Shown here one piece after another: positions 3,892 to 30,878 of a stretch of 60,395 nt of DNA (the first letter of the stretch is position 1; the number at the start of each line of letters is the position of its first letter). A program made the position numbers and the translations under genes. The stretch lies in NCBI RefSeq assembly GCF_006345805.1, contig NW_021834627.1:1-60395 (forward strand). The letters run 5' to 3'. This DNA is from Octopus sinensis (lineage: Eukaryota). The notes beneath the pieces were generated by a model. That model saw nothing but the letters and a program-made list of their open reading frames with translations, made no database searches and was not told the origin of the DNA.

Positions 3892-4286
3892 GTGTCGTAT
3901 GTGTATTTTCATTTTCCTGTCGTTTCACTCTCATTTCACTCCTTCGATAATAGAGTAGACCACAATTGTTTATGTTTCAATAATTTTTTTTCTCTCTATA
4001 TATATATATTTATTGTTAAGAATTTTCAAGATTGAATAATAGAGTTCGAAATGTCAAGAAAGTCAATTTCTCTGGAAATGAAAATTAATCTATGAAATCA
4101 ACTTCAAAATAGAAAGAGGTGAACACAGCCAATGGAACAATTGTCGGAACAATATAAAAGAAAAAAGAAAAAAAAAACAGAGCTACTATAATCGCTGGGT
4201 CTCCAGTGACTGTAAAAAAAAATACGTACATAGGAATATTATGGAAACAATGGAAAAAGAGTTAACATGCAGTTTACCGTCTTAAC

Positions 4287-5587
4287 AATGTGAAAGTATA
4301 TTGTCCTAAAAAAATGAAAGTAAATGGCGATTGAAATTGAAAATGACAACAGTGTCGTCATAACAATGTGAAAGTGAAAGTATGTTGTCCTAGAAATATT
4401 GAAATTGCGATTGAGACCGAAAGTGATTACAATGGCGTCGTAATAATGTGAAAGTATGTTGTCCTAAAAAAATGTAAGTAAATTGCGATTGAAACCGGGA
4501 GTGACGACAGTGACGTCACAATAATGTGAAAGTATGTTATCCTAAAAATATGAAAGTAAATTGCGATTGAAACCGGAAGTGACGACAGTGGCGTTGTAAT
4601 AATGTGTAAGTATGTTATCCTAAAAAAATGAAAGTAAATTGCGATTGAAACCGGAAGTAACAACAGTGGCATCGTAATAATTTGAAAGTATGTTGTCCTA
4701 AAAAAATGAAAGTAAATTGCGATTAAAACCGGGAGTGACGACAGTGGCGTCGTAATAATGTGAAAGTATGTTGTCCTAAAAAAATGAAAGTAAATTGCGA
4801 TTGAAACCGGGAGTGACGACAGTGGCGTCACAATAATGTGAAAGTATGCTATCCTAAAAAAATGAAAGTAAATTGCGATTGAAACCGGGAGTGACGACAG
4901 TGGCGTCACAATAATGTGAAAGTATGTTGTCCTAAAAAAATGAAAGTAAATTGCGATTGAAACCGGAAGTAACAACAGTGGCATCGTAATAATGTGAAAG
5001 TATGTTGTCCTAAAAAATGAAAGTGAATTGCGATTAAAACCGGAAGTGACGACAGTGGCGTTGTAATAATGTGAAAGTATGTTGTCCTAAAAAAATGAAA
5101 GTAAATTGCGATTGAAACCGGGAGTGACGACAGTGGCGTCACAATAATGTGAAAGTATGTTATCCTAAAAAAATGAAAGTAAATTGCGATTGAAACCGGG
5201 AGTGACGACAGTGGCGTCACAATAATGTGAAAGTATGTTATCCTAAAAAAATGAAAGTAAATTGCGATTGAAACCGGAAGTAACAACAGTGGCATCGTAA
5301 TAATGTGAAAGTATGTTGTCCTAAAAAAATGAAAGTAAATTGCGATTGAAACCGGAAGTAACAACAGTGGCATCGTAATAATGTGAAAGTATGTTGTCCT
5401 AAAAAATGAAAGTGAATTGCGATTAAAACCGGAAGTGACGACAGTGGCGTTGTAATAATGTGAAAAAAAATGAAAATTGTGATTGAAACCGGAAGTGACG
5501 ACAGTGACGTCGTAATAATGTGAAAGCATGTAATCCTAAAAAAATGAAAGTAAATTGCGATTGAAACCGGAAGTGACGAGAGTGGCA
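4287..5587. repeat. 78-bp minisatellite, about 16-17 copies
   Basis: Unit AATGTGAAAGTATGTTGTCCTAAAAAAATGAAAGTAAATTGCGATTGAAACCGGAAGTGACGACAGTGGCGTCGTAAT; 26-aa periodicity in the minus-strand ORFs. Confidence 0.97.
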
Positions 5588-6497: not shown

Positions 6498-7250
6498 AAG
6501 GAGGCGAGCTGACAGAAACGTTTGCACGCCGGGCGAAATGTGTAGCCGTATTTCGTCTGCCGTTACGTTCTGAGTTCAAATTCCGCCAAAGTCGACTTTG
6601 CCTTTCATCCTTTCAGGGTCGATAAATTAAGTACCAGTTACGCACTGGAGTCGATATAATCGATTTAATACGTTTCTCTGTCCTTGTTTGCCCTCTCTGT
6701 GTTTTGCTCCTTGTGGGTAGTAAAGAAATAGGTATTTCGTCTGCCGTTATGTTTTGAGTTCTAATTCCGCCGAGGTCGAGTATGTCTTTCATCCTTTCGG
6801 GGTCGATTAAATAAGTACCAGTTACGCACTGGGGTCGATATAATCGACTTAATCCGTTTGTATGTCCTTGTTTGTCCCCTCTATGTGAAGCCCCTTGTGA
6901 GTAGTAAAGAAATCAGTATTTCGTCTGTCTTTACGTTCTGAGTTCTAATTTTGCCTTCCATCTTTTCGGGGTCGATAAATTAAGTATCAATTGCGTACAG
7001 GGGTCGACCTAATCGACTGGCCCCCTCCCCAAAATTTCGGGTCTTGTGCCTAGAGTAGAAAAAGAATATTTCTTTGTATGTAAAGGCAAAGAGCTGGCAG
7101 AATCGTTAGCATTCCGACTTCATGTTCCGAGCTAAAATTCTGCCTATCATCCTTTCGGGTTCGATAAAATAAGTACAAAGTACCAGTTGAGCAATGGTGT
7201 CGATTATCCCCCTCCTCCGAAATTGCTGGCCTTGTGTCGAAATTTGAACA
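6498..7250 (+). mobile_element. tRNA-derived SINE family B multimer (one head plus tandem ~185-bp units) and an adjacent copy
   Basis: GGCGAGCTGACAGAAACG head, B-box GAGTTCAAATTCC, repeated GTCGACTTTGCCTTTCATCCTTTCGGGGTCGA domain. Confidence 0.9.
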
Positions 7251-28969: not shown

Positions 28970-29441
28970 ATGCAATGATTCAGTGCGGTCACCTGACCAG
29001 ACATCGGAGACCGGACATTGTTGTGGTGAATAAAAAAAAAAATTAAAAAAGAACTTGCATGATAATCGGCAGAGCATTTCCCGGTGACAACAGGATCAAA
29101 GAGCCAGGAGAAAAACTGAACAACTACGGCGATTTGAAGAGGGGAACATATAATGGTTGTGATCAATGAGGAGAGCAGACGTGATACCAATAGTAATTTG
29201 GTGCACTTGGAAGTATCGGCACTCAACTACCAGCATGGCTCAAAAAGATTGGTACAAATGTAAAGATAGAACACCTACAAAAACCAGCATTGCTTGAAAC
29301 TGCAAGAATTCTTCGCAAGGTTCTTGAAGCATGACCAGTAAACAAGTGTCACCTTAGTCTGCTGGCTGTGAACAGCAGACACTTTCCATCATACCCAGCA
29401 AAATAAGCTGAGAGCTTTCATCAAATAGTAATAATAATAAT
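28970..29441 (+). mobile_element. Third R4/Dong-like 3' end (REL domain) with (AAT)n tail
   Basis: IQCGHLTRHRRPDIVVVNK...VIPIVI...GALG...LQKPALLETARILRKVLEA*. Confidence 0.85.
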
Positions 29442-29858
29442 GGCTTCAAATTTGTGCACAAGGCCAGTAATTCCGGGTGGGGTGGCTAAATCGATTACAT
29501 CGTTCCCATTACTCAACTGCTATTTATTTTATCGACACTGAAAGGATGAAAAGCAAAATCAACTTTGGCAGAACCTGAACTTAAAACGTAAAGACGGCCG
29601 AAATGCCGCTAAGCATTGCGCCCAGCATGCTAACGATTTTGATAATGATTTCAAATTTTTACCACAAGGGCAGCTTGAGGGGAGGGAATTAAATCGATTA
29701 CATCGACCCCAGTGTTTCACTGGTACTTAATTTATCGACCCCGAAAGGATGGAAAGCAAAGTCGACCTCAGTGGAATTTGAACTCAGAAGGTAGCGACGG
29801 GCGAAATACTGCCAAGCATTCCATGCTGCGTGCTAACAATTCTGCCAGCTCGCCGCCT
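29442..29858 (-). mobile_element. Two SINE B copies
   Basis: Homology to family B. Confidence 0.82.
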
Positions 29859-30107
29859 TTCTAACGATTCTAATAATAAAATCAATGCGAACAGCTTCTG
29901 AGCTTCAGAATATTGCAGATCTTAAGATGAAAGATTGAAAAGTAGTTGTATACTGTCAACTTAATGTGATAGTCCCATGAAGGGAATAATACTACTGCTA
30001 TTTAGCCCTAGGAAGCATCAACGCTTCCTGTCGGCCTTGACACATTTCTTGTGTCCTTATGTTTACAAGGGGAAGACAAGCACCCCCACCCAGCTAAGCC
30101 AGTAATT

Positions 30108-30144
30108 AGAGACTAGTTTCTGAGTATTTGCTCGTCATCAGTCT
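30108..30144 (-). ncRNA. Type I hammerhead ribozyme, copy 1
   Basis: Minus strand AGA-CUGAUGA-C GAG CAAAUA CUC A-GAAA-CUAG-UC|UCU; predicted cleavage between 30111 and 30110. Confidence 0.8.
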
Positions 30145-30457
30145 GGAGTAGCATGGCTTGATAGCTGGAGATGCTTGTCTAGCCTTTGTAAACATATAAG
30201 AATTCTAGTGAAATAAATCTACTGATTACAAAAATAGAAATATTACATTCCTAAATATCTCAGAGATATATAAGCAGTAGTGGTATGATAGAGTAGTTGT
30301 ATACTGTCAACTTAATGTGACAGTCCCATGAAGGGAATCACACCACTGCTATTTAGCCCTAGGAAGCATCAACGCTTCCTGTCGGCATTGACACATTTCT
30401 TGTGTCCTTATGTTTACAAGGGGGAGACAAGTACCTCCACCCAGCTAAGCCTGCAGT

Positions 30458-30496
30458 CAGAGACTAGTTTCTGAGTATTTGCTCGTCATCAGTCTG
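30458..30496 (-). ncRNA. Type I hammerhead ribozyme, copy 2
   Basis: Minus strand CAGA-CUGAUGA-C GAG CAAAUA CUC A-GAAA-CUAG-UC|UCUG; predicted cleavage between 30462 and 30461. Confidence 0.82.
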
Positions 30497-30656
30497 GAGT
30501 AGCATGGCCTGCTAGTCGGAGATGCCCATCTAGCCCCTGTAAACATATGATTATTGTAGTGGAATACATTCACTGATTTCGAAAATAGAAATAATACATT
30601 TCTAAATCTCTCACAGAGATTTATGCAGCAGTGATACGATAAAGTAGTTGTATACT

Positions 30657-30878
30657 CTTTTACTCTTTTACTCTTTTACTTGTTTCAGTCATTTGACTGC
30701 GGCCATGCTGGAGCACCGCCTTTAGTCGAGCAAATCGACCCCGGGACTTATTCTTTTGTAAGCCCAGTACTTATTCTATCGGTCTCTTTTGCCGAACCGC
30801 TAAGTGACGGGGCCGTAAACACACCAGCATCGGTTGTCAAGCAATGCTAGGGGGACAAACACAGACACACAAACACAT

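What the first reader, a model, noticed from the sequence alone, without database searches (positions are those of the whole stretch)
30058..30546. Long hairpin around the ribozyme with structure-preserving changes that identify the minus strand
Seen: the hammerhead caps a ~45-bp interrupted stem (UAUGUUUACAA/UUGUAAACAUA, AGACAAG/CUUGUCU, AUCUCCA/UGGAGGU, AAGCC/GGCUU). Copy 2 changes (AGACAAG to AGAUGGG, ACAAAGG to ACAGGGG, AAGCC to AGGCC) become G-U or G-C pairs on the minus strand but mostly A-C mismatches on the plus strand. The rest of the unit has short hairpins (AGGAAGC/GCTTCCT, GACACA/TGTGTC, TCCC/GGGA, TGTCA/TGACA). The predicted circle 30111-30461 pairs at least as well as either linear copy. 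Inference: selection on a viroid-like RNA fold.
Basis: partly seen in the sequence, partly recalled or inferred. Interest (0 to 1): 0.75.

Follow-up and report, generated by a model that had tools for sequence, protein, structure and literature searches.

The report
Chimeric dimer of hammerhead retrozyme repeat
This is one copy of a scattered, non-coding jumping repeat that carries a hammerhead self-cutting RNA motif at the tip of a long hairpin and is likely copied by Penelope-type retrotransposon enzymes; it is an ordinary member of a known class, except that this copy joins two different subfamilies.

Summary
The hairpin is real: about 45 pairs on the minus strand, capped by a canonical type I hammerhead, z about -6 to -8 against shuffles. 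It lies in a dimer (29939-30656) of a 351-nt unit that belongs to a dispersed family (over 2,000 search candidates). This is a metazoan non-LTR retrozyme. Its copies show Penelope-type marks: 85 of 109 blocks end at two fixed sites, 5' ends scatter, and inverted arms are common. The minus strand is the RNA strand, but the family shows this (83 of 87 copies fold lower on minus), not the two-copy comparison. The predicted circle folds equally well on both strands. Of the six cited changes, three are the family-majority state, one comes from chimerism and two are rare. The array switches from subfamily B to A between 30528 and 30428, across the ribozyme. Selection on the fold has modest support: compensatory pairs, a palindrome-keeping double change in helix III, and a homologous sister family. 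'Viroid-like' fits the fold only. Cleavage, circles and the partner enzyme are not shown; ADAR editing was tested and rejected. The scan already noted this class many times in this genome.

The parts
29939..30656 (-). Retrozyme insertion: 2 units of 351 nt plus 16 nt; 3' end (RNA sense) at 29939-29941, truncated 5' end at 30656
30409..30547 (-). Long hairpin, upstream copy (copy 2); 45 of 48 positions paired; 5' arm subfamily B, 3' arm subfamily A
30058..30196 (-). Long hairpin, downstream copy (copy 1); 41 of 48 paired; helix I only 3 bp
30462..30492 (-). Type I hammerhead core; helix II 3 bp closed by C.A, helix III palindrome ACUAGU at 30468-30463; predicted cut between 30462 and 30461; helix I 4 bp
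30111..30141 (-). Second type I hammerhead core, same sequence; predicted cut between 30111 and 30110
30111..30461 (-). Predicted monomer/circle between the two cut sites; subfamily A throughout; 43 of 48 stem positions paired
30428..30528 (-). Interval of the switch from subfamily B (upstream) to subfamily A; holds the upstream ribozyme
30390..30406 (-). Short hairpin GACACA/UGUGUC (also 30039-30055); kept in sister families
30361..30380 (-). Short hairpin AGGAAGC/GCUUCCU (also 30010-30029)
30305..30335 (-). Two short hairpins (UCCC/GGGA, UGUCA/UGACA) in a multiloop just before end site 1
30283..30292 (-). Family 3' end site 1 (170-179 nt after the cut; also at 29939 and 30640), inferred reverse-transcription start
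   Evidence: 52 of 109 blocks end here; 28 of 47 arms end at 168-178
30223..30242 (-). Family 3' end site 2 (220-239 nt after the cut; also near 30585), inferred second start
   Evidence: 33 of 109 blocks end here
30657..30680 (+). 8-bp tandem tail of a neighbouring high-copy repeat that abuts the truncated 5' end; not part of the element

Best explanation
The finding is the ribozyme hairpin of a non-coding, dispersed 351-nt repeat (a metazoan non-LTR retrozyme) whose minus-strand RNA is predicted to self-cleave as a hammerhead dimer, likely circularises, and is likely copied back into DNA by a Penelope-like reverse transcriptase. Shown: the core, the hairpin, the family, the two fixed 3' ends, scattered 5' ends, inverted arms, read-through of the cut site, and the B-to-A switch in this copy. 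Inferred steps: (1) tandem copies are transcribed on minus; (2) helix III is too short to fold alone (2 bp, 2-nt loop), so two cores pair through the 6-nt palindrome and swap helix I partners, which the long stem allows at little cost; (3) the 351-nt monomer is ligated and, as a lone circle, cannot cut itself; (4) a Penelope-type enzyme nicks AT-rich DNA, starts at one of two internal sites and runs through the junction, giving partial tandems and inverted arms; (5) selection on the fold acts in the source lineages, while inserted copies such as this one decay neutrally. This insertion is unusual in joining two subfamilies, most simply by a template switch during copying.
For: Canonical metazoan type I layout (helix I 6 bp, II 4 bp, III 1-2 bp with palindromic loop, active as dimer) per PMC4209133; family helix I is 6 bp in 67 of 145 cores. 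Helix III is a palindrome in 137 of 145 cores: ACUAGU 127, ACAUGU 10; of 18 variants 10 are the palindrome-keeping double change, one 7-copy clade on the tree, and the sister family has ACAUGU. Double-hammerhead fold of the dimer transcript -241.2 vs -244.9 kcal/mol for two local hairpins with open cores. 3' ends: 85 of 109 blocks in 30 of 351 nt, matching the two internal starts of a Penelope-like element (PMC11167929). With a query that avoids the hairpin, 31 of 47 arms cross the cut site, none begins at it, and 10 of 18 two-armed loci have one arm at each end site. 150 of 164 blocks keep one subfamily type throughout. Fold on minus lower in 83 of 87 copies. Sister family at 66% identity: 11 of 21 changed non-core pairs change on both sides (p=0.001), 9 of the 11 still pair. 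Young RT plus GIY-YIG elements exist in the genome.
Against: No Rfam hammerhead match at gathering score or at E up to 10. Helix II is closed by C.A in 105 of 145 cores, both window cores included; effect on activity untested. Helix I is 4 bp and 3 bp here, and the unconstrained fold of the dimer (-258.1) is 17 kcal/mol below the active form, so this copy may be dead; 8 of 9 Xenopus dimers did not cleave. No autonomous partner sharing sequence was found in 40 loci around GIY-YIG hits. Stem and loop change at the same rate on internal branches (0.29 vs 0.29 per site). Group B majority has equal z on both strands (-8.6 vs -8.5; group A -10.1 vs -5.6). Within-array divergence (mean 0.086, 52 pairs) is only a little below between-array (0.108), which does not prove copying of one circle. 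9 of 47 arms start within 17 nt of the cut site, about twice the rate elsewhere by my rough count, so some templates may be linear.
Confidence: 0.82

Rival explanations
1. The template is an uncut linear read-through transcript of tandem source loci; the ribozyme is dispensable for copying and no circle is needed. The chimera would be inherited from a mixed source array.
For: In the Penelope-like element tested in vitro, ribozyme mutants inserted normally and uncut RNA was the main substrate. Read-through of the cut site (31 of 47) fits uncut RNA as well as circles. Arrays are short: 7 of 167 blocks hold two intact cores.
Against: Core and helix III palindrome are kept, also through double changes and in sister families. 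Same-size mussel retrozymes are mostly circular in vivo. Linkage is about as strong by either path round the unit (mean |r| 0.64 vs 0.61, 34 site pairs).
Confidence: 0.3
2. The B/A junction arose after insertion by gene conversion between dispersed copies, or is an assembly artefact of this unplaced 60-kb contig.
For: The window is a whole unplaced contig; no contig in four runs bridged the array or covered the left flank. The last lap again shows B alleles at 29993 and 29990, a patchy pattern. Switches are spread over the unit: 4 of 14 lie in the 69-nt interval with the ribozyme, about 3 expected.
Against: The B tract runs through all nine informative sites from 30642 to 30528 up to the truncated end, and the A tract through a whole lap; the left flank is single-copy.
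Confidence: 0.3
3. The A-to-G differences in the stem are ADAR A-to-I edits of the double-stranded RNA that were fixed by reverse transcription, not selected wobble pairs.
For: Five of the six cited changes are A/G on the RNA strand; three private or rare A-to-G changes (30537, 30527, 30517) sit in one arm of copy 2; 14 of 24 common polymorphisms are A/G against 5 C/U.
Against: On tip branches A>G at A-U pairs (39 events, 47 sites) equals its mirror U>C (35, 47; p=0.73); no copy of 73 has more than two stem A>G changes; the commonest 5' neighbour is C (27 of 43). Most common A/G variants run G-to-A on the tree.
Confidence: 0.05
4. The hairpin is a DNA-level inverted repeat (a MITE-like or fold-back repeat) with no selection on RNA.
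For: The window's circle and copy 1 fold equally on both strands; inverted arms are common in the family.
Against: Majority G-U pairs and no majority A.C on minus; intact ribozyme core in 126 of 145; element ends lie outside the hairpin and are one-sided.
Confidence: 0.03
5. The RNA is a true viroid-like replicon that copies RNA to RNA, and the DNA copies are by-products.
For: Size (351 nt), 66% pairing and a hammerhead; RNA-RNA replication was raised as a possibility for mussel retrozymes.
Against: No ribozyme on the other strand; the fold is branched; thousands of DNA candidates with retrotransposon ends.
Confidence: 0.05

Closest known systems
Metazoan non-LTR retrozymes (Cervera and de la Pena 2020, PMC7229834; mussel repeats of 350-390 bp)
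   Same: Type I hammerhead in a low-GC, protein-free unit of 150-450 bp, dimers to multimers, highly self-paired predicted circle.
   Different: Expression, cleavage and circles not shown here; mostly short partial tandems; a single ~45-bp stem carries the ribozyme at its tip; this copy joins two subfamilies.
Penelope-like elements and their pseudo-LTRs (PMC11167929, PMC8557442, PMC4209133; bioRxiv 10.64898/2026.07.22.740005)
   Same: Two fixed 3' ends downstream of a hammerhead, 5' truncation, partial tandems, inverted 5' arms, AT-rich targets.
   Different: No ORF; the two ends are about 55 nt apart (30-40 nt tail in the papers); canonical rather than minimal hammerhead; no homology to a pseudo-LTR found.
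Dimer-active hammerheads of newt/axolotl repeats
   Same: Helix III of 2 bp with a palindromic loop, predicted to need a second copy.
   Different: PMC7229834 reports efficient monomer cleavage for most invertebrate retrozymes; here dimer dependence is inferred from sequence only.
Hammerhead viroids (Avsunviroidae; features recalled)
   Same: Size, self-pairing, hammerhead.
   Different: Ribozyme in one polarity only; genomic DNA copies with retrotransposon ends; no evidence of RNA-RNA replication.

Membership tests
Metazoan non-LTR retrozyme | Type I hammerhead with conserved core in each unit | tested here: met
   Both cores intact; 126 of 145 family cores intact. Rfam gave no match, so this rests on motif and helix inspection.
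Metazoan non-LTR retrozyme | Tandem unit of 150-450 bp, GC under 45-50% | tested here: met
   351-bp period, 2.0 copies; about 43% GC in the family majority.
Metazoan non-LTR retrozyme | No protein; dispersed copies | tested here: met
   No frame of 110 aa or more in the array among the 140 of 146 frames printed; 2631 candidates, 105 matches among 40 scored.
Metazoan non-LTR retrozyme | Highly self-paired predicted circle | tested here: met
   z -6.2, 64% paired.
Metazoan non-LTR retrozyme | Self-cleavage in vitro | not testable with these tools
   Needs transcription assay.
Metazoan non-LTR retrozyme | Expressed as linear and circular RNA | tested here: inconclusive
   Family fragments in contigs of 4 of 4 presumed RNA runs; contigs show no strand, ends or circles.
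Penelope-like element (autonomous) | ORF with RT and GIY-YIG endonuclease | tested here: not met
   None in the element or beside it; 19 longer frames from family loci and window scanned, one non-Penelope RT piece.
Penelope-mobilised non-autonomous element | Two fixed 3' ends (tail), 5' truncation, partial tandems and inverted arms | tested here: met
   85 of 109 blocks; 18 of 39 loci two-armed.
Penelope-mobilised non-autonomous element | Homology to the pseudo-LTR of an autonomous partner | tested here: inconclusive
   None in 40 loci around GIY-YIG hits; only 150 of 5029 candidates were scored.
Hammerhead viroid | Ribozymes in both polarities, no DNA stage (recalled) | tested here: not met
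   No plus-strand core; many DNA copies.
Hammerhead viroid | RNA-RNA replication | not testable with these tools
   No stranded raw reads were offered.

The most novel reading that the evidence does not exclude
Retrozyme RNAs recombine at the ribozyme: two different RNAs pair through the helix III palindrome, cut, and are re-joined with swapped arms (or the Penelope enzyme jumps between their cut ends), and this B-to-A array is the genomic record. Retrozyme families would then be recombining populations of RNA circles, with the long stem as the platform for arm exchange.
Probability: 0.15. Interest if true: 0.7.

Novelty: new member of a known kind. Interest (0 to 1): 0.3.

Why it matters
It adds a family to a known class and gives sequence evidence on open points of the retrozyme cycle: dimer-dependent cleavage (palindrome-keeping double change), two internal starts shared between sister families, read-through of the cut site, and mixing of subfamilies in about 1 block in 12. 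It also shows that comparing two tandem copies can mislead: they need not share one parent. A specialist would find it useful, not surprising.

Tried and rejected
Rfam at both thresholds: no hammerhead match. ADAR editing: rejected. Partner search: PF26215 not in the library; GIY-YIG search gave young 775-781-aa RT+EN elements, but blastn and profile searches of 40 loci hit only other retrozyme-like repeats, not pseudo-LTRs; one pseudo-LTR searched has 40 near-identical copies and no likeness. An RT piece beside one copy is not Penelope-like. Switch points do not pile up at the cut site or end sites. A heterodimer circle would make the last lap B from its start; it is A-like at 30077 and 30018. 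The 16-nt terminal repeat is element sequence, not a target-site duplication. RNA runs: no RNA holder on record; contigs only, no statement on level, strand or circles. DNA runs did not bridge the array or cover the left flank: no evidence either way. The profile alignment of the L138 family failed (script stopped); its likeness is by eye and. A paper search for the loop 2 sequence did not confirm my recall that it matches the Schistosoma hammerhead, so that is not used. R-scape was not available. Copy samples are the best-scoring hits (40 per search), so they lean to long, less decayed copies; the pair list comes from a minus-strand fold, so G-U over A.C counts (1368 vs 387 cells) are partly built in.

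Full report
What is there. Bases 29939-30656 are two 351-bp units plus 16 nt, differing at 42 positions. Each unit has a type I hammerhead core on the minus strand (30492-30462, 30141-30111); a motif scan found none on plus. Rfam gave no hammerhead match at either threshold, so the call rests on the core letters and helices. The layout is the canonical metazoan one described in PMC4209133: helix I up to 6 bp, helix II of 3 bp closed by C.A, helix III of 2 bp with a 2-nt loop inside the palindrome ACUAGU. The predicted monomer between the cut sites is 30461-30111.

The hairpin. All ten folds tested beat 100 of 100 shuffles. Of 48 stem positions, copy 2 pairs 45, copy 1 41 and the circle 43. So the ~45-bp stem is real, but the circle lies between the copies. 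The window alone does not fix the strand: the circle gives -117.6 on plus and -115.7 on minus, copy 1 hairpin -60.7 and -59.5; only the copy 2 hairpin favours minus (-63.0 vs -50.9).

The family. A search of the own genome gave 2631 candidates. From 183 loci I drew 167 distinct blocks, in three subfamilies, A, B and C. Contigs of three organism labels hold the family at 95% likeness. 83 of 87 near-full copies fold lower on minus, by 14 kcal/mol on average; subfamily majorities have 4-5 G-U and no A.C in the long stem. Against shuffles the gap is clear for A (z -10.1 vs -5.6) and absent for B (-8.6 vs -8.5).

Six changes were named; 14 stem pairs differ. Three of the six are the family-majority G in copy 2, so the change is in copy 1; one is a subfamily-B U that normally pairs with A; two are rare alleles. 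The reason is that the array is a chimera: B alleles from 30642 to 30528, A alleles from 30428 through the whole predicted monomer, and two B alleles again at 29993 and 29990. 14 of 164 blocks show such a switch, with no clear positional peak. Adjacent laps differ by 15% in the upstream overlap, second highest of 52 pairs. This array was therefore not copied twice round one circle. I could not confirm the junction with reads.

Selection on the fold. Support is modest but consistent. On a tree of 73 unswitched copies, stem changes keep pairing in 36 of 63 internal events against 249 of 626 tip events (p=0.01); internal G>A falls on G-U pairs far more than on G-C pairs (12 at 11 sites vs 12 at 52, p=0.0003). 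Tips change stems and loops alike (2.85 vs 3.05 per site), as dead copies should; internal branches do too (0.29 vs 0.29), which is against strong purging. On 64 of the 114 hairpin copies, 93.4% of cells pair and 31 change on both sides (0 of 500 shuffles), but these sit in 7 pairs (85 of 500), mostly one. Helix III is ACUAGU in 127 and ACAUGU in 10 of 145 cores: the commonest variant is a double change that keeps the palindrome. A sister family (361 nt, E 4e-16, 66% identity) keeps the hairpin order and both end motifs, with 9 of 11 double changes still pairing. ADAR editing as a source of the G-U pairs fails: A>G 39 vs U>C 35 on equal site numbers, no hyper-changed copy.

How it moves. 52 of 109 blocks end 170-179 nt after the cut site and 33 end at 220-239; 5' ends scatter. 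With a query that avoids the hairpin, 31 of 47 arms cross the cut site, none begins at it, 18 of 39 loci are two-armed and 10 of those 18 have one arm at each site. This matches the two internal starts and tail shown for a Penelope-like element (PMC11167929) and the tandem/inverted pattern in PMC8557442. Young RT plus GIY-YIG elements are in the genome, but none of 40 loci examined shares sequence with this family beyond other retrozyme-like insertions. In the dimer transcript the double-hammerhead fold, with swapped arms and a 6-bp helix III, costs only 3.7 kcal/mol against two local hairpins with open cores, but 17 against the unconstrained fold, and helix I is cut to 4 and 3 bp. This copy may be inactive; only 7 of 167 blocks have two intact cores.

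Comparison with what is known. It meets the sequence features of metazoan non-LTR retrozymes (PMC7229834); cleavage and circles are untested. A 2026 preprint ties the class to Penelope pseudo-LTRs. It is not an autonomous Penelope element and not a viroid. Papers seen: PMC7229834 passages and one results section; the preprint parts 1-3 of 5; PMC11167929 parts 1-2 of 4; PMC4209133 part 1 of 4; PMC8557442 and PMC6962438 passages; others as listings. Seven searches listed no description of this family or of subfamily switching in animal retrozymes; supplements were not read, and those of PMC7229834 and PMC4209133 may list cephalopod hammerheads. The label 'octopus' comes from an earlier scan note and my recall of the flanking repeats, not from a call. 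The scan has 218 notes fitting this class in this genome; none matched this sequence.

Verdict. A real, ordinary retrozyme hairpin: new member of a known kind, interest 0.3. The strand and selection claims hold on family data, not on the evidence offered. The chimeric junction across the ribozyme is the one odd feature; recombination at the ribozyme is not excluded (0.15) but is not supported by the spread of switch points.

Noticed in passing
L136:5941-6490 (minus); L144-L158: Second, younger retrozyme family (361-nt unit, copies 93-97% alike, 2596 candidates), homologous to this one; majority core reads UUGAUAA, the U3-A8 variant named in PMC4209133; helix III ACAUGU; same two end motifs 59 nt apart.
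   Followed up: partly
L131:7437-7790 (plus); L138:810-1300; L124:384 and 6319: Further hammerhead repeats; those in L131 and L138 keep the same hairpin order. The L131 core has an 8-nt helix III palindrome.
   Followed up: partly
L124-L133, L142; L240-L251: Very young Penelope-like elements with 762-883-aa RT plus GIY-YIG frames and an upstream frame; one family has 40 pseudo-LTR hits at 99-100% identity and a minimal hammerhead-like motif.
   Followed up: partly
family alignment, window 30440 and 30165: A 1x1 mismatch in the long stem flips from G.A (subfamilies A, B) to A.G (subfamily C), so it stays a purine-purine mismatch.
   Followed up: no
window 30485 with 30472 (and 30134 with 30121): Helix II is closed by C.A in 105 of 145 cores and U-A in 30; the U form recurs at a CpG and looks like decay, so the mismatch seems to be the source state.
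   Followed up: partly
window 29000-29440: Looks like the 3' end of a non-LTR retrotransposon with an (AAT)n tail; recognised by eye from recall.
   Followed up: no
window 29440-29880, 30657-30860; 184-bp repeats at 6548, 21560, 36627, 37525: High-copy interspersed repeats; the ones flanking the array reach far higher summed contig depth than the retrozyme in presumed RNA runs.
   Followed up: no
window 4278-5586: 78-bp tandem array, 15 copies, 89% matches.
   Followed up: no
L136:8100-9001: Integrase-like frame (rve, weak) of an LTR-type element, observed only.
   Followed up: no
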